A stretch of 64,000 nt of DNA, from positions 49,704 to 113,703 of the IMG/VR virus record IMGVR_UViG_3300044730_000313; one strand, 5' to 3'. A program made the translations under genes and the position numbers. The notes beneath the pieces are model-generated. The model worked only from the letters and a program-made list of their open reading frames with translations, made no database searches and was not told where the DNA came from. The DNA comes from a virus. Shown here one piece after another: positions 67 through 33,110 of this stretch; the stretch's first letter is position 1, and each line of letters starts with the position of its first letter.

Positions 67-3000
67 TTAGAGATTTTTGAAAGCTTTGACCACTGAGCTA
101 TTTAGGCTCTTCTTTTTGCTCACACTTATTCCTTTTCTCCCACCTCTTTTGTATTGTTCTTCTATCTCCTCCGCTGTAAACATTTGATCATCAAGCTCTT
201 GTTCAGTGATTGGGGCAGGGGCTTGAACTGCAGGTGCTGAAGGAGCTGCTGCTGGAACTTTTCCTTGTGAAACAATTGGAGGTGTGGCAGTAGTACCAGG
301 AGCCATTACTTGGTACTGCTTTCCATCAGGACCAACATACACTGTAGGTATCTGAGGTTGGAAAGGAGCGTTCATATTGATGGTTCTGAAGCGTGGGTCA
401 TAGCGGAAGTTGTACAGATTCTCGTATGTGGCTAACTTCCTGTTTTCCAATTGGTTACGCATGAACTTATCTCCAATAGAACTCAAGGCAGACTGTGTAA
501 TAGCTTTAGTCTTAGACTTGGCAGTTTCTTGTCTTACGTACTGTCTGTCTAGTATTTCTAGGTTTTTCAGACCGAACTCATTCAAGAGGTTTCTATTCTC
601 TCTGTATACAGCATCCTTCATAGCCTGATTAGCTCTGAACTGCTCACCTAGCACCTTTTGGTTAGCTGCATACTTTTGAGCGTTTAGCATAGACTGAGCA
701 GCAGGGTTATATCCCAGCATCCTTTGTTGTGATCTGAAGGCAGCTTCGTTCTCATTCAAAATATCCTGATAGGATATATCATAAGGAACAGACAGCTGAG
801 GTTGGAGTGTTTGAGCCTGTACAGGTTCTAACTGGTTATTAGCCAAGGCATACATCTCACCAATCAATTGTCTTGGATCAAGTTCTTCTGTATCTGTAGG
901 TCTAACGTAAGGAAGCACCTGACCGATTATATCCAATAAGGGATTTCTCTTATAAGGAGTGATGGGAATGACAGATGGACGTGCGGTTGTTTTATCATCT
1001 GTAGTGGTAGCAGTGGTCTTCTTCTCAACATTAAGCTCACCTGAAGCAATACTAGTTGGAGTTTTCTTTGGTAGAGCAGCAATGTATTGTTCAGTGCGAG
1101 GACCAAAGAACATATCTAAGTTGGTGTCAAGAATCTCATCTGTTGAAAGCTTCTTTAGGTCATCTAAAGAATTGATACCCTTTGCTTTAGCTCTTGCTGT
1201 TACAGTGCCAGCATCCAAGATTATTTTCTTAGCAATGTCAGGGAAATACGCATGGTATCTCTTTTGAAGCTCTAATATATATGGATTTTTCTTTCCTGGA
1301 TTCTGAGCATTTGCTGCTTTAGCTTTTTCATACAGCTCCATTATTTGTCTCACCTTTGCCTCTTCAGTGGTGGCAATTGGATAGTCTGATGCATCAGCTA
1401 CATCTGCAGCAATAGTATTTACAACAGGTGCTGCAGCAGCTCTTGTAGACAATGGAACTACCGCTGGAGTTATCACTTCTTCTTCTGTATCAGGAAAATC
1501 TATAGGTGCTGCAACAGGAGCGAACGGAACAGTAGCTTTTGCAGGAGCTGCTGCAGGAGCTGTTTGTTGCATTTGTTGAGCTGTTGCTTTTGGAAGCGAT
1601 GGTACTGACATAGGAATTCCTAAAGGACCAGTTGCTCCTGAGGGAAGCATCATCTTCATTGCGGGAGCCACTTGTCGTGCAGTTCTTGAAACTCCAAGAA
1701 CAGGTGACAATATAGGTCCAAATAATCCTCCAAATTGAGCGTTTTGTTTTATAGCCTTCTTGTCCATCTTCACTTTACCTCTAGCCAAATCATCAGCAAC
1801 CAATCCCATTTCTTCAGCTGTATCATTGATGGCATTCTGCAAGGATGCAGCAGTCATCTTCTTATCTGCAAGCTCTTTGAGTTTTTGATTAGCTCCTAAC
1901 ATAGTGTATTGCAAGGAGTTGAGTGTCATTTTATCTATAGGCGTGCTCACCTCAAAGTCTTCTAACATCTGCGTTGCTTTATCAAGCTTTTTGTTCTGCT
2001 TGTTCTCTTTCTTAGATAGATCAGCCACATAGGTTTTGAACTTCTTACCCTTAGCCTCTTCTCCAAGCATTGGAATATAAGACTTAGGTATCTTGAGATT
2101 ACCAAACACTACAAGGTTAGAATCACCACTTGTGCCATCTTGTAGCTTTACAGCAGGTTCACCTCTTTCCACCTCTACAGGGTTCTCACCATAGGTGATA
2201 CCAATACCAGTGTTTCCTCTTCCATCAGACTCATCGTGGGATTGACCTCTGAACATGATAGTTTCACCACCATCTGGTAGATAGGGATTCTGAGACATTG
2301 TTTCTGCATATCCACCCCAGTGTGTCTGGAGCTCTCCACCCATTTGCATAGCTGGTCTTTCTGTAGACATAGCTCGTGCACTAGGAGGAGTGTAGGCTTT
2401 CAGGTGACCACCAGCTCTGAGCATATCTGCATCATGAGGAGGCTTTAGAAGGTCTTTTACATTGTGCCCTCCAAAGGATACAATCTTCTGTGGTTGCCAT
2501 GTATGACTTACCCATTTGTATGGAGATGTCATTCCACCATCTTCCATGTTAGCACCAAACTGTTGCTGAACACCTATTCCAAAGTTTTGTCCTACAATTT
2601 TGTTTATGTTTTGTCTAGACAAATCTTGTTGATTCTCAATCTTTTTCTCTTGTAGTCTATCAATTGCAGACCCTATGAACCTAGTTGCAAAACCGATGGG
2701 TCCACCAAACAAACTACCAACACTACCAAGCACCTCACTATATCCACCAGTTGTACCTCCTCCAGCAATGTTAGCAAGTTGTTGACCTTGTGAACTTCCC
2801 AAAGCATCCATAAATGCTCCACCACCAGCAGCCTTATGCAGCTTACCACCATGATAGAATTGCTTGTAACGCTCACTATCATTCAAGGGTTCATATCCAA
2901 GATTGTCATAAAGTGTACCAGGAGCATAGGTGTTCATGATTTCTCCACCCCCTACAGATGCTCCAAACTCAGCAAGCACATTTGTACCTACGCCATAAGA

Positions 3001-3721: not shown

Positions 3722-5263
3722 TTAGTTATATTTATCTAACCATCCACCCTTGGTTGGTTTGTTATAGTTTGTAAAGTTAAGCAATTGATCTAACTTCTTA
3801 AGTGGTTGAGCATCAGCATTGTTTACACTCACACCACCTTTAGCCACAGGATATTCTGTTACATATTCTCCATCAAACTCATAGTCTTCTCCTGGTTCCA
3901 TGTATTGGACATCTCCTGTGTCAGATATTCCGAGGAGGGGTTGATCTACACCCTCCATAGTGATTACATTTGAAGGGATGATGACAGGCCCACCCACGTT
4001 CTCAGGGTTCCAATATCCCATAGGATCTACAGGTATGTCCCCTCCATCTTGTAGGGTGCCTGTAGCAGATGCATAGTCAGCACCCTCCTGGTATGTAGCA
4101 TCTCTAATACCTCCTACAAAAGACTTGAGAGCAGCTTTGCTAGGGAAGTACATAGTCTTCTGCTCATTGTATTTGCCTGTAGGATAGGTAAAGGTGTATT
4201 TAGTTGGCTTGTTTTCAAACTGACTAGCTTTGAGAGGACTAGGCGCATTTGGTACAGGAAGCTCATATCCTAAGTCTATTGCTTCTCTAGGAATAGGGAT
4301 AGGTTTTGCTAGTTTCTTACTTTCAGGAAGAGGAAAAGGTCCAATTGTTCTTGAAGTTTGTTGCTTCTTTACAGGTGGTTGTTTCTTTACAGGTGGTTGA
4401 TACTTAAGACTTTTTCTTACAGGAGGATGATATATTTCTACAGCAGCACTATAAGGAAGAACATTTGTTTCTGTTAAATTTTTATTTTCCTCTAACGCTT
4501 CTGTTAACCCTTTAATTTTTCTAGATGTATCAAAACCAGGATCTCCAACCACTATAACATCTTTAGGCACCTGAGGATATTGGGATGGACCCCAATACTG
4601 TCTAGGAAGAGATTGCTCTGTGTATTTAGGAAGAAATCTTCTTTTTCCTTGATAGTCTCCATGTATAAGATTACTGAATGCACCAACTAGACCAGAGCTG
4701 CTCATTAAAGAAAAGTTACTAAGGTTCTTTTTTACATCAGCTCTAGCTTTAGCAAGATCTTTCTGTCCTCTTATGTAGTTTCTAACGCTATCCTGCCAAC
4801 GTCTGTAATCATTTATATCTGTTGTAATAGCGCTACCATTCTGACTAATAGTCTTAGGTTTGAAGTCTAGTCCAGCTTGGTAGTATTTCATCTCCTGTCC
4901 ATTCTGTGCACTAGCCTTTGTCTTCTTAGCATAGGGACCGTTAGAAGGAGCAGGACTCTGTGTACGTGCGTAGGTGAATCCTACAGCACCAGGGAGAACA
5001 CCACCCATTTGCATTGTTCCACCCCATGCTCCGTTGTAGTTGAATCCAACATCCGTTAGACCTCCCATAGTTCCTTCTATGCCATTCTGTGCTTGGGGAG
5101 CGTCATACTTATCTAACCATCCTCCAGATTCAGCTTTGTAGGGCTTAGCGCCACCAGCAATAGCTCCAAAGAACTTACGTTGTTGTTCTGTCAGGGGATG
5201 CCCATGCACCTCCTTATCGTGAAGGATTTTCCTTGCTTTTGTGGATGTGAGTTTCTTTGCCAT
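3722..5263 (-). CDS. Putative internal virion protein with repeated xQ/KxGG motifs
   Basis: 513 aa, tightly coupled to both neighbours. GGWLDKY occurs twice, plus AQNG/MQMGG/LQDGG/AKGG repeats. Confidence 0.55.
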   Translation of the reverse strand: MAKKLTSTKARKILHDKEVHGHPLTEQQRKFFGAIAGGAKPYKAESGGWLDKYDAPQAQNGIEGTMGGLTDVGFNYNGAWGGTMQMGGVLPGAVGFTYARTQSPAPSNGPYAKKTKASAQNGQEMKYYQAGLDFKPKTISQNGSAITTDINDYRRWQDSVRNYIRGQKDLAKARADVKKNLSNFSLMSSSGLVGAFSNLIHGDYQGKRRFLPKYTEQSLPRQYWGPSQYPQVPKDVIVVGDPGFDTSRKIKGLTEALEENKNLTETNVLPYSAAVEIYHPPVRKSLKYQPPVKKQPPVKKQQTSRTIGPFPLPESKKLAKPIPIPREAIDLGYELPVPNAPSPLKASQFENKPTKYTFTYPTGKYNEQKTMYFPSKAALKSFVGGIRDATYQEGADYASATGTLQDGGDIPVDPMGYWNPENVGGPVIIPSNVITMEGVDQPLLGISDTGDVQYMEPGEDYEFDGEYVTEYPVAKGGVSVNNADAQPLKKLDQLLNFTNYNKPTKGGWLDKYN

Positions 5264-24105: not shown

Positions 24106-24136
24106 ATGTAGTTGTTTTTGATTGGTTTATGAAAAG

Positions 24137-24167
24137 TAAAAGTATATAATACCTATTGAATAACAAA
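24137..24167 (-). promoter_or_regulatory. Possible Bacteroidota promoter for scaffold/MCP
   Basis: TTTG-N19-TACTTTTA on the minus strand. Confidence 0.4.
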
Positions 24168-24234
24168 GAGTTAGATGGCTATATAGGCTGTTTTCGTAGA
24201 TAATATAGCATTAATGTAATTCACTCTAACCAAA

Positions 24235-24504
24235 TTACTTTAACTCCACCCATCTGAAACCCAGTTTCCATAGGAATCTGGCTGTCTTGGAGGACTCTTT
24301 ACTCACCTTTGTCTCGCTCCAATCAGGGTGTTTTAGGTGGAAATGCTCATGCAAGGCGGTGAGTAAATACCTATACCCACTCAATCTTACGTCTAATTCT
24401 ATCTTATTCTTATCATCCCAAGCCAATCCATGAGCCTTTTCTCTACCTAATTTACGGTGTTCAACTTTGTGTGGGTTTGTTATTTCCATATTGACTTGCC
24501 TCAA
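24235..24504 (-). CDS. Small HExxH zinc metallopeptidase-like protein
   Basis: IELDVRL...TALHEHFH...WSE; the start may be the internal Met (MEITNP). Confidence 0.55.
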   Translation of the reverse strand: MRQVNMEITNPHKVEHRKLGREKAHGLAWDDKNKIELDVRLSGYRYLLTALHEHFHLKHPDWSETKVSKESSKTARFLWKLGFRWVELK

Positions 24505-24700
24505 ATATCTCTTTAAGAGCTTGATAAGTAATGAGTAATGACATCCTCTTTATCTTTTCCACCATCTCAGCTTCATCCTCAGACAGCAAAACAGTGTCCA
24601 TATCCTCAACAACACCCATTGCCTGTATGCAGGCTGTGATGTCTTCATGAGGGGTGGGGTCAAATTCTAGAGTGTCATCTAATATCTCGTTGATATCCAT
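24461..24700 (-). CDS. Hypothetical acidic protein
   Basis: 79 aa ORF coupled to the portal stop. Confidence 0.55.
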   Translation of the reverse strand: MDINEILDDTLEFDPTPHEDITACIQAMGVVEDMDTVLLSEDEAEMVEKIKRMSLLITYQALKEIFEASQYGNNKPTQS

Positions 24701-31362: not shown

Positions 31363-31479
31363 TACAATCTTTTATGCTATTGCTATATTATGTCTTATTT
31401 CCCTTATTCCCGTCTACCAGAAGCCATAAAAAAGCTTTATATCTAAAGGATGTATAGAATAATAACCCGCCCTCCACCC

Positions 31480-31798: not shown

Positions 31799-32245
31799 AT
31801 GTCACAAGAACTGCGTGTTAAATCAGGTGTTTGGTCAGCAAAAGGCAACTTCACAGCTCGTACAGCTTATGGCCAAACTTTCTTCGTCCACAGAAACCAA
31901 ATGACCGAGTTGGGTTATGAGAACAAACAGGACGAAAGTGGGAAATGGTCTAATCCTACAGTTAAGTTCCCATTCTATGCTGTCGTAGACACAAGCATGA
32001 TTGGTCAGCTTGACAAGGATGGCAATCCTGCGGTTGGAGAAGATGGCAAGCCTGTCCAAGTTGCTCGCATCAACGCACTCTCAGTGTTCAAAGACCTCGA
32101 TGAGTTGAAAGCTTGTGCAATCGAAGAGCGTACTATTGGTTCAGACATCGAACTTGCAGTACAGCAGCACATTCGCAGCAAGGCTAGCACAGCTGGTCTC
32201 AGCGAGCAGGCTATCAGCAGCATTCTTGCTAACTCACTCGTGTAA
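31799..32245 (+). CDS. Hypothetical early protein (148 aa)
   Basis: First rightward gene, with strong codon bias and its own terminator. Confidence 0.7.
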   Translation: MSQELRVKSGVWSAKGNFTARTAYGQTFFVHRNQMTELGYENKQDESGKWSNPTVKFPFYAVVDTSMIGQLDKDGNPAVGEDGKPVQVARINALSVFKDLDELKACAIEERTIGSDIELAVQQHIRSKASTAGLSEQAISSILANSLV

Positions 32246-32253
32246 TGATTTAC

Positions 32254-32289
32254 GAAAGTGTCCTCAATCAGGGGACACTTTCTTTTATT
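32254..32289 (+). terminator. Intrinsic terminator
   Basis: GAAAGTGTCCTC-AATCA-GGGGACACTTTC followed by a T-run. Confidence 0.75.
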
Positions 32290-32520
32290 CATTATATATA
32301 TGGGTGGGTAAACATGAAATGTTGATTGGGTGGGACTATAATCGATGCACAATGTATTGATTTTGTGTGAGTTAGAGAGTGGCTGTGTAACCCATTGCAC
32401 CTTTTAGGGGGTAAAACCAGACATTGCTAATATGCATGTCTACAAAGAATATATATAGCATTAACCTAGCTAGCATATACATGGGAGAAATTTATTGTCA
32501 CATTCTATGTATGTTAACAA

Positions 32521-32642
32521 ACCAGCCACTGTATAGTCTACGGGCTAGGTGTGGAGACAGTTGAGTGTAATGGAAACTATTACTATCTATCGCCATTATG
32601 CAATATAACCAGAATGATAGTGGGCAGCCTGGGAAGACAGGC
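32521..32642 (+). ncRNA. Candidate structured RNA (class not identified)
   Basis: CCACT/AGTGG closing stem, cUACGg tetraloop hairpin, GTAATG-GAAA hairpin and terminal GCCTG-GGAAGA-CAGGC hairpin in an ORF-free region. Confidence 0.45.
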
Positions 32643-32795
32643 ATTAATGCACCATCCTAGCTTCCCAAGGGCTAGCGGTTGTAATATCCAATTGGAGGTA
32701 AAGATGCGAGTAGGACAATGCTGCCTTTAACCCAGCGAGCCCTCGATTTCAAGAACGCCAGTTCTTGTATTACAACTGAGTGCAGAGGGATATGT
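32640..32795 (+). ncRNA. Twister ribozyme (type P1-like) with large P5 insertion
   Basis: UAA + P2 UGCA/UGCA + GAGGG; P4 CUAGC/GCUAG with loop UUCCCAAGG; pseudoknots CC:GG and CCC:GGG; 11-bp P5 CGGUUGUAAUA/UAUUACAACUG. Confidence 0.7.
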
Positions 32796-32900
32796 ATAGG
32801 TGTTCATCTGTTCTACTTCATAGAATAGAGGCTTTTTGGTGATGCAAAACCATATATTTTTATCTAAATCCTTATTAATCAATCATTTAAACTAATTAAC

Positions 32901-33110
32901 ATGAAGTATTTGTTAAAGCTACTGTTCATGACAGTGGCATTCCTTGTTGTAGCACCAGGTGTATTGTTATATTGCCTGTGGCACCTTGATCTCAGCACAT
33001 TTAGAATCATGTGGTTTGATCAGAAAATGATCATTAGAGAGCCTATGTACAAATTGTTTAACATTAAAATTATGGGTTATGGCACTAAGCCTCAATCATT
33101 CAGAGCATGA
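32901..33110 (+). CDS. Small membrane protein
   Basis: N-terminal hydrophobic helix; AT-rich leader. Confidence 0.5.
   Translation: MKYLLKLLFMTVAFLVVAPGVLLYCLWHLDLSTFRIMWFDQKMIIREPMYKLFNIKIMGYGTKPQSFRA

What the first reader, a model, noticed from the sequence alone, without database searches (positions are those of the whole stretch)
32521..32645. Second structured RNA abutting the ribozyme: candidate ribozyme-matured phage ncRNA
Seen: AGCCACU..GUGUGG..AGUGGGCA with CCACU/AGUGG pairing, a cUACGg (UNCG) tetraloop hairpin at 32534-47, a GUAAUG-GAAA hairpin, and a terminal GCCUG-GGAAGA-CAGGC hairpin ending 3 nt before the predicted twister cut. That hairpin shares nucleotides with the twister P1 strand. 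The region lies in about 650 bp without a credible ORF, just after a strong terminator. Inference: the twister defines the 3' end of this RNA (cyclic phosphate) and frees a 5'-OH mRNA, analogous to HDV-like ribozymes that trim phage tRNAs. I cannot name the RNA class.
Basis: partly seen in the sequence, partly recalled or inferred. Interest (0 to 1): 0.7.

Follow-up and report, generated by a model that had tools for sequence, protein, structure and literature searches.

The report
Variable leader RNA before phage twister
This stretch is a poorly conserved, gene-free filler between a promoter-like motif and a self-cutting twister ribozyme in a lake crAss-like phage. Only its first hairpins recur in two related phages, so it is more likely a dispensable leader fragment than a new class of RNA.

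Summary
As a whole the stretch folds no better than shuffled sequence (z -1.1), and Rfam, ARAGORN and ORF checks name nothing.

The neighbouring ribozyme looks real. I found 31 distinct copies in viral contigs with compensatory changes in P2, P4 and P5. A minimal copy aligns end to end with Rfam twister-P1 below threshold (20 bits, E 0.02).

The finding lies in a 180-nt lineage-specific insert (32466-32645) in a variable slot. One relative has nothing there. Others carry a small ORF plus terminator, a tRNA-like RNA, or an unrelated filler.

Only 32466-32556 has homologues. These are two hairpins, one with the UACG tetraloop. They occur in three contigs from two other phage lineages (two of those copies identical). 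The hairpins keep pairing through 4 compensatory changes, but they lie 500-700 nt downstream of the twister and end in a true terminator.

The terminal hairpin fits a recurrent hairpin just upstream of these twisters (10 of 31 copies), which is P0-like or terminator-like.

Ribozyme-defined 3' ends are plausible. A conserved second RNA is not supported. This scan has reported hairpin-plus-twister modules in other phages before.

The parts
32254..32282 (+). Intrinsic terminator of the upstream 148-aa gene (31799-32245)
   Evidence: 12-bp stem with 6 GC pairs, followed by a U run. Conserved in relatives.
32283..32465 (+). Conserved non-coding block A. It ends in the promoter-like motif TATAGCATTAA (32454-32464).
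   Evidence: Aligned in 9 related loci (A5; blastn). The motif recurs after terminators and 15-40 nt before start codons in many related loci.
32466..32645 (+). Lineage-specific 180-nt ORF-free insert in a variable slot. It is flanked by the direct repeat GCATTAA (32459-65 and 32639-45). The finding (32521-32645) is its 3' two thirds.
   Evidence: L005 has ATATAGCATTAA|TGCACC contiguous. L001/2, L006 and L020 hold an ORF plus terminator, L101 a tRNA-like RNA, and L075 an unrelated filler. Single copy in the 113.7-kb genome.
32477..32512 (+). Hairpin H1: 10-bp AU-rich stem with a 16-nt loop.
   Evidence: Predicted in the window and in L041. Kept in the 3-sequence consensus with one compensatory pair, but the register is ambiguous.
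32526..32554 (+). Hairpin H2: outer stem CCAC:GUGG enclosing UAGUC-UACG-GGCUA (32534-47, a UNCG-type tetraloop).
   Evidence: Homologous in L041:9196-9225 and in L101. The inner stem changes A:U/G:C to G:C/A:U to G:C/G.U with an invariant UACG loop.
32567..32583 (+). Window-specific hairpin GUAAUGG-AAA-CUAUUAC
   Evidence: It lies in a 37-nt stretch absent from L041 and L101 (A3). No homologue was found anywhere.
32627..32642 (+). Terminal hairpin GCCUG-GGAAGA-CAGGC, 2 nt before U(-1). Best read as the twister's upstream (P0-like or terminator-derived) hairpin.
   Evidence: dG -8.0 kcal/mol. Equivalent hairpins end 1-12 nt before U(-1) in 10 of 31 distinct twister copies, mostly with a U tail. 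P0 is listed as an optional twister stem in PMC5408937.
32645..32789 (+). Divergent type-P1 twister-like ribozyme: U|AA, P2 UGCA(C), P4 CUAGC-UUCCCAAGG-GCUAG, long P5 with a 79-nt interior, then GUGCA-GAGGG. Predicted cut between 32645 and 32646.
   Evidence: 31 distinct copies with compensatory changes in P2, P4 and P5. The minimal copy L076 aligns full length to Rfam RF03160 at 20.2 bits, E 0.023. The window copy itself has no Rfam hit.
32790..32883 (+). Conserved block C downstream of the ribozyme, leading to the next ORF (32901-33110)
   Evidence: 88-98% identical in L050, L006, L001/2, L020 and L018; 76% in L005.

Best explanation
The stretch 32521-32645 is the 3' part of a 180-nt lineage-specific, non-coding leader or spacer (32466-32645). 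It sits in a recombination-prone cassette slot of the phage's early arm, between a promoter-like motif (TATAGCATTAA) and a divergent type-P1 twister ribozyme.

It is a mosaic of three pieces:
1. A two-hairpin element (32466-32556) also present in two related phage lineages.
2. A window-specific hairpin.
3. A terminal hairpin equivalent to the hairpin that commonly precedes these twisters (P0-like or terminator-like).

When the region is transcribed, the twister cuts after U32645. This releases the leader as a fragment of roughly 180-190 nt ending in a hairpin plus AUU with a 2',3'-cyclic phosphate. The ribozyme, block C and the downstream mRNA are left with a 5'-OH.

The conserved job belongs to the ribozyme, which separates transcripts and remodels their ends. 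The leader itself is probably dispensable.

Shown: the anatomy, the lack of conservation, and the covariation in the twister and in H2.
Inferred: transcription from the motif, self-cleavage, and the nature of the ends.
For: - Slot variability: nothing (L005), ORF plus terminator (L001/2, L006, L020), tRNA-like (L101), unrelated filler (L075), all between the same conserved blocks.
- The fold is no better than shuffles.
- Homologues exist for 32464-32560 only, at a different position in the same early region, and they end in a real terminator.
- H2 is kept by compensatory changes. Overall 95.5% of cells are paired and 4 pairs changed on both sides, matched by 18 of 500 shuffles. Slid controls give 0-1.
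- Twister family: P2 position 3 is C:G in 22 copies and U:A in 9. P4 varies CUAGC/UCAGC/CCAGC with matching partners. P5 varies CAGA..UCUG versus CAGU..ACUG.
- Sub-threshold full-length Rfam twister-P1 alignment.
- A hairpin abuts the cut in 10 of 31 copies.
- The TATAGCATTA motif recurs before genes.
- P0, P3 and P5 are optional twister stems, and a P1 with only two Watson-Crick pairs is known from env22 (PMC5408937).
Against: - H1 and H2 are kept with compensatory changes across about 30% sequence divergence, which hints at some RNA-level function.
- In L101 the slot upstream of the twister holds a tRNA-like RNA, so ribozyme-trimmed functional RNAs do occur in this phage group.
- Neither the promoter role of TATAGCATTAA nor self-cleavage has been tested.
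- The window twister itself scores nothing in Rfam and has a P1 of only 2 bp.
- With an upstream terminator at 32254-82 and no mapped start site, the 5' end of the fragment is unknown.
Confidence: 0.55

Rival explanations
1. One reading: 32521-32645 (or 32466-32645) is a discrete functional small ncRNA. Its 3' end is matured by the twister and it acts in trans.
For: - The twister cuts at its 5' edge, which suits 3'-end definition.
- A terminal hairpin would protect the 3' end.
- H2 covaries.
- L101 has a tRNA-like RNA in the same slot.
- Abundant early non-coding RNAs are reported for the crAss-like phage phi14:2 (bioRxiv 10.1101/2020.03.07.982082).
Against: - Absent from the nearest relatives, one of which has an empty slot.
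- Only half of it has homologues, and those are not ribozyme-adjacent.
- z-scores of about -1.
- Three viral pattern scans and one metagenome pattern scan, plus nhmmer and a CM search over the fetched loci, found no more copies.
Confidence: 0.15
2. The H1-H2 element (32466-32556) is a cis-regulatory leader, either riboswitch-like or protein-binding. In L041 and L101 it controls the terminator that follows it, ahead of a small membrane-protein gene. In the window the terminator is replaced by the hairpin and twister.
For: - In L041 and L101 the homology starts exactly at the element and runs through the terminator into the downstream ORF, while the upstream ORFs differ.
- The layout of element, terminator, then gene is the classic attenuator layout.
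- The L041 element folds with z = -2.26.
- The UACG loop is invariant.
Against: - Only three copies, two of them nearly identical.
- The downstream ORFs of the window and of L101 are unrelated.
- No antiterminator alternative was demonstrated.
- No Rfam family matches.
Confidence: 0.12
3. The insert acts at the DNA level, or is a decayed cassette remnant with a 27-aa micro-ORF (32481-32564) whose ATG lies 16 nt after the promoter-like motif.
For: - In relatives the same motif is followed 15-40 nt later by the start codon of a small ORF.
- The palindrome CTAGCTAG opens the element.
- The 7-bp direct repeat GCATTAA flanks the insert.
Against: - The reading frame is not conserved between the window and L041 across the homologous part (read directly from the sequences shown).
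- No PHROG or Pfam match.
- Compensatory changes in H2 point to RNA pairing rather than to coding or a plain DNA site.
Confidence: 0.1

Closest known systems
Type-P1 twister self-cleaving ribozyme with optional P0 and P5 stems (Rfam RF03160; Roth et al. 2014 and the refined consensus, as reviewed in PMC5408937)
   Same: U|AA cleavage context, a 4-5 bp P2, a P4 with a UCCCAAG-type loop, and GAGGG after P2'. Both pseudoknots are possible, P5 is optional, and a hairpin lies just 5' of the cut. The terminal hairpin of the finding fits the optional upstream stem.
   Different: The family is not recognised by Rfam at gathering score. The L2/L4 pseudoknot is CC:GG instead of GC:GC. P1 is 0-7 bp (2 bp here) and P5 carries 4-145 nt. 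That P0 lies 5' of P1 is from my own memory of the refined consensus; the review text read here says only that P0 is optional.
Hairpin-plus-twister modules between phage genes reported earlier by this scan (e1-5778428, e1-5872474, e1-5797260, e1-5771566, e1-5997251)
   Same: Uncultured, often freshwater, crAss-related phages. The twister sits just after a hairpin or terminator in the early arm, sometimes trimming the tail of a non-coding RNA.
   Different: Here the RNA upstream is short, mostly unconserved and absent from the nearest relatives. Those notes are AI notes on other DNA and I did not re-test them.
HDV-like 'theta' ribozymes next to tRNAs in gut crAss-like phages
   Same: A small self-cleaving ribozyme placed so that it defines an end of a neighbouring structured RNA in a Crassvirales-type phage.
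   Different: A different ribozyme class. The partner here is not a tRNA (ARAGORN negative) and is not conserved.
Abundant early long non-coding RNAs of Cellulophaga phage phi14:2 (bioRxiv 10.1101/2020.03.07.982082)
   Same: A long ORF-free stretch near the start of the rightward early arm of a crAss-like phage of an aquatic Bacteroidota-type host.
   Different: No sequence similarity. Part of the phi14:2 region scores as tmRNA-like (46 bits) and no twister motif was found there.

Membership tests
Twister ribozyme, type P1 (RF03160) | Score at or above the Rfam gathering threshold (67.2 bits) | tested here: not met
   No hit for the window copy. The minimal relative L076 scores 20.2 bits, E 0.023, over the full-length model.
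Twister ribozyme, type P1 (RF03160) | N|A cleavage dinucleotide adjoining P1, followed by a 4-bp P2 whose 3' strand is followed by GAGGG-type L1 nucleotides | tested here: met
   UAA-UGCA(C) ... (G)UGCA-GAGGG is present in all 31 copies. P2 covaries: C:G in 22 copies and U:A in 9 at position 3.
Twister ribozyme, type P1 (RF03160) | P4 hairpin whose loop L4 can form pseudoknots T1 (with L1) and T2 (with the L2 dinucleotide) | tested here: inconclusive
   The P4 stem covaries. In L4 (UUCCCAAGG), CCC can pair with the GGG of GAGGG and GG with the L2 CC. These pairs are invariant within the family, so the only covariation is against the canonical GC:GC.
Twister ribozyme, type P1 (RF03160) | P1 helix closing the motif | tested here: inconclusive
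   0-7 bp across copies and 2 bp in the window (read directly). The env22 twister also has only two Watson-Crick P1 pairs (PMC5408937).
Twister ribozyme, type P1 (RF03160) | Site-specific self-cleavage | not testable with these tools
   Needs an in-vitro transcription and cleavage assay.
Optional twister stem P0 (reading for the hairpin at 32627-42) | A hairpin immediately 5' of the P1 5' strand that recurs among family members | tested here: met
   Hairpins with dG <= -8 end 1-12 nt before U(-1) in 10 of 31 distinct copies. Their sequences are unrelated and most look like intrinsic terminators, so P0-like and terminator-derived cannot be told apart.
   Absent from L001/2, L005, L006 and L020. 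Only 32464-32560 recurs, elsewhere in the locus of L041 and L101.
   H2 and H1 have 4 pairs changed on both sides among 3 sequences, matched by 18 of 500 shuffles. There are no data for the GUAAUGG hairpin, the terminal hairpin or the CCACU/AGUGG helix.
   z = -1.12 and -1.06.
tRNA / tmRNA | Cloverleaf or tRNA-like domain detected | tested here: not met
   ARAGORN finds none in the window, and Rfam finds none.

The most novel reading that the evidence does not exclude
The roughly 95-nt H1-H2 element (CUAGCUAGCA, an AU-rich hairpin, UUAACAA, then CCAC[stem-UACG-stem]GUGG; window 32466-32556) is a new small regulatory RNA motif of lake crAss-like phages. It would be either a leader that governs the structure following it or a small RNA. 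In this phage a twister, instead of a terminator, would make its 3' end.
Probability: 0.12. Interest if true: 0.5.

Novelty: new member of a known kind. Interest (0 to 1): 0.25.

Why it matters
If the leader were a functional RNA, it would be a second kind of phage RNA, beside tRNAs, whose end is set by a self-cleaving ribozyme. As it stands, its main value is as a natural experiment. The same twister is kept with nothing, an ORF, a tRNA-like RNA or unrelated fillers upstream. This suggests the ribozyme's conserved role is to cut the early transcript and reset RNA ends, not to serve one particular partner. That helps frame the open question of what phage twisters are for, and it predicts exact RNA ends that can be tested.

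Tried and rejected
- Rfam: whole window at gathering score. E-value mode on 32200-32950, on the L005 copy and on L101. Twister models RF03160, RF03154 and RF02684 against the whole phage genome. Nothing for the finding region.
- tRNA/tmRNA: ARAGORN on the window and on 34 loci. Nothing adjacent to the finding.
- Coding: ORFs of 20-59 aa in or over the region have no PHROG or Pfam support.
- GenBank phages: blastn of the intergenic region found no match.
- Paralogues in the phage's own genome: none.
- Pattern scans for more copies of the H2 and CTAGCTAG element: three of IMG/VR and one of metagenome contigs. These gave only L041 plus chance hits in GC-rich coding DNA.
- Searching by the linked downstream protein of L101 returned only the same contigs.
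- A CM (R1) and nhmmer over the fetched loci added only L101 = L021.
- Expression: no RNA holder listed among public runs. Laying contigs from four lake/bloom runs showed only that a diverged relative lacks cover over 32432-32768. That is not usable as evidence.
- phi14:2 early intergenic region: no similarity and no twister motif.
- The 6-nt complementarity GGCAGC (32623-28) / GCUGCC (32722-27) was judged to be within chance.
- A resemblance between the terminal hairpin and the common terminator GAGCCUGUAACAGGGCUC (shared AGCCUG..CAGG) was noted, but the stem registers differ, so it is given little weight.

Full report
**Context.** The window is part of a 113.7-kb virus record from lake-water metagenomes. 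Its portal, terminase and DNA polymerase match crAss-like phage families, with the portal about 26% identical to gut crAss-like phages. Genes run leftward up to about 31316 and rightward from 31799. The finding lies in the first long gap of the rightward, replication-side arm. That gap comes after a 148-aa gene (31799-32245) and its terminator (32254-82), and before a small ORF at 32901.

**Checking the observation.**
- UAGUC-UACG-GGCUA at 32534-47.
- GUAAUGG-AAA-CUAUUAC at 32567-83.
- GCCUG-GGAAGA-CAGGC at 32627-42, followed by AUU|AA.

The ensemble is not unusual. The MFE z-score is -1.12 for 32521-32645 and -1.06 for 32466-32645, with 24 and 30 of 200 shuffles folding as well. The long-range CCACU/AGUGG helix competes with a local CCAC:GUGG stem, and the local stem is the one kept in homologues. 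Rfam finds nothing at gathering score in the window and nothing relevant in relaxed mode. ARAGORN finds no tRNA. The small ORFs have no family support.

**The neighbouring ribozyme.** The interpretation rests on the twister, so I tested it. A 15-nt core pattern fetched many viral contigs. Filtering gave 31 distinct copies of this motif:

UAA-UGCAC-C-linker-P4(stem, UUCCCAAGG, stem)-P5(stem, 4-145 nt, stem)-A-GUGCA-GAGGG

Compensatory changes are plain:
- P2 position 3 is C:G in 22 copies and U:A in 9.
- P2 position 5 is C:G in 27 copies and U:A in 2.
- P4 varies CUAGC/UCAGC/CCAGC with matching partners.
- P5 varies CAGA..UCUG versus CAGU..ACUG.

The 58-nt minimal copy in L076 aligns over the whole Rfam twister-P1 model at 20.2 bits, E 0.023. 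That is far below the gathering score of 67.2. The window copy, with its 79-nt P5 interior, is invisible to Rfam. Against the published consensus (three essential stems P1, P2, P4; optional P0, P3, P5; T2 made by a conserved GC in L2; PMC5408937), this family has CC:GG in place of GC:GC and a very weak P1. I rate it a genuine but divergent twister. Cleavage itself is inferred, not shown.

**What occupies the place of the finding in relatives.** Seven loci were fetched through the upstream 148-aa protein, and others through the twister pattern. All share the same frame: terminator, a conserved block A ending in ATATAGCATTAA, a slot, the twister, then a conserved block C. The slot content differs:
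- L005 has ATATAGCATTAA|TGCACC with nothing in between.
- L001/L002, L006 and L020 have a small ORF followed by the terminator GAGCCUGUAACAGGGCUC plus U run, directly abutting UAAUGCACC.
- L101, whose upstream protein is 40% identical, has a tRNA-like RNA: a 7-bp acceptor stem and a T arm. ARAGORN does not call it.
- L075 has an unrelated ORF-free filler of about 215 nt, ending in a hairpin 1 nt before the cut.
- The window has 180 nt (32466-32645) bounded by the direct repeat GCATTAA.

The region of the finding is therefore lineage-specific, and the ribozyme is retained without it.

**Homologues of the insert.** Blastn and then nhmmer found homology only for 32464-32560. The matches are L041:9130-9232 (69% identity) and L101:2593-2696 (= L021). 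Three pattern scans of IMG/VR, one of metagenome contigs, a search through the linked downstream protein, and a covariance model over 40 loci added nothing.

In L041 and L101 the element lies 500-700 nt downstream of the twister. It starts at the stop codon of an ORF that differs between the two phages. It ends in a true intrinsic terminator and is linked to the small membrane-protein gene that follows.

The shared part is CUAGCUAGCA, an AU-rich hairpin (H1, window 32477-32512), UUAACAA, and H2 (CCAC, the UACG hairpin, GUGG; 32526-54). In the three sequences:
- 95.5% of cells pair.
- Four pairs change on both sides, two of them in the UACG hairpin.
- 18 of 500 shuffles reach this, and slid controls give 0-1.

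With three sequences, two of them nearly identical, this is a positive hint and not proof. The register of H1 is ambiguous because of AU repeats. The GUAAUGG hairpin sits in 37 nt that L041 and L101 lack.

**The terminal hairpin.** Among the 31 distinct twisters, 10 have a hairpin of dG <= -8 kcal/mol ending 1-12 nt before U(-1). Most have a U-rich tail like an intrinsic terminator, and a few more have long-loop hairpins. The window hairpin (dG -8.0, 2 nt before U(-1)) belongs to this pattern. It is best read as part of the ribozyme module: the optional upstream stem called P0 in the twister literature, or a terminator-derived hairpin. Earlier notes of this scan use the same reading for other phages (e1-5778428). 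In the canonical register the window's P1 is only two A-U pairs and does not overlap the hairpin.

**Likely mechanism.** The motif (C)ATAA/ACA-TATAGCA(T/A)TA recurs after terminators and 15-40 nt before start codons, in both orientations, across the related loci. I therefore take it as a promoter or start-region signal. This is an inference. A transcript starting near 32460-32470, or reading through from the upstream gene, would contain the leader, the twister, block C and the downstream genes. Twister cleavage after U32645 would release the leader with a hairpin-AUU 2',3'-cyclic-phosphate end and leave the downstream RNA with a 5'-OH. The upstream content is interchangeable or absent, while the ribozyme and block C are conserved. 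The selected function is therefore more likely transcript separation and end remodelling than maturation of this particular RNA. I give this reading 0.55.

The rivals are:
- A functional trans-acting small RNA (0.15).
- A cis-regulatory H1-H2 leader (0.12).
- A micro-ORF or DNA-level remnant (0.10).

**Comparison and novelty.** Twisters in phages, with hairpins just upstream and sometimes trimming neighbouring RNAs, are already described in the literature on the class. This scan has also noted them repeatedly on other DNA. The abundant early non-coding RNAs of phi14:2 are a positional analogue only; there is no similarity. The finding is thus a new member of a known arrangement. It contains a small, rare, possibly structured motif (H1-H2) of unknown role. 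No expression data could be obtained.

Noticed in passing
window 32283-32465: Block A is a non-coding block conserved in 9 related phage loci. It reads TATATATA, then GGGUGGG, a covarying hairpin (AACAU/AUGUU, AAUGAU/AUCAUU, CAAC/GUUG, AAAC/GUUU), GGGUGGG, then GUUAGAGAG..UGUGU.ACCCAU, and ends in ATATAGCATTAA. The four G3 tracts could form a G-quadruplex with a hairpin loop, or the block could be promoter or operator DNA.
   Followed up: partly
window 32454-32464 (+), 24204-24214 (+), about 31378-31387 (-); many related loci: The motif (C)ATAA/ACA-TATAGCA(T/A)TA recurs after terminators and 15-40 nt before start codons in both orientations. It may be a phage promoter or start signal unlike the usual Bacteroidota -7/-33 elements.
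   Followed up: partly
window 24106-24699: A 594-nt ORF-poor gap lies between the minus-strand portal gene and the next gene. It is 88% identical in L020:1809-2402. It carries a plus-strand TATAGCATTAA motif pointing against the surrounding genes, so it may be an antisense or non-coding transcript.
   Followed up: partly
L101:1736-1840 and L101:~2085-2225: Two tRNA-like modules (a 7-bp acceptor stem plus a GGUUCGAnUCC T arm, with atypical or expanded middle parts) flank the twister in a related phage. ARAGORN does not call them, and Rfam sees only the T arm.
   Followed up: partly
L124 (Cellulophaga phage phi14:2, NC_021806) 4031-4502: This stretch scores 46 bits on the Rfam tmRNA model (gathering score 47, E 2.6e-16). 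It lies inside the long early intergenic region that Drobysheva et al. report as an abundant non-coding RNA of unknown function.
   Followed up: no
L075 reverse strand, about 1375-1590 (reverse-complement numbering): Another ORF-free filler of about 215 nt lies between a terminator and the twister. It ends in the hairpin CAUACUAG-UGGGGAAGGCAG-CUAGUAUG, 1 nt before the cut. It is not homologous to the window's filler, although the loop resembles GGGAAGACAG.
   Followed up: partly
window 32686-32775: The window twister's P5 carries a 79-nt interior with no homologue in the other copies. P5 interiors range from 4 to 145 nt across the family.
   Followed up: no
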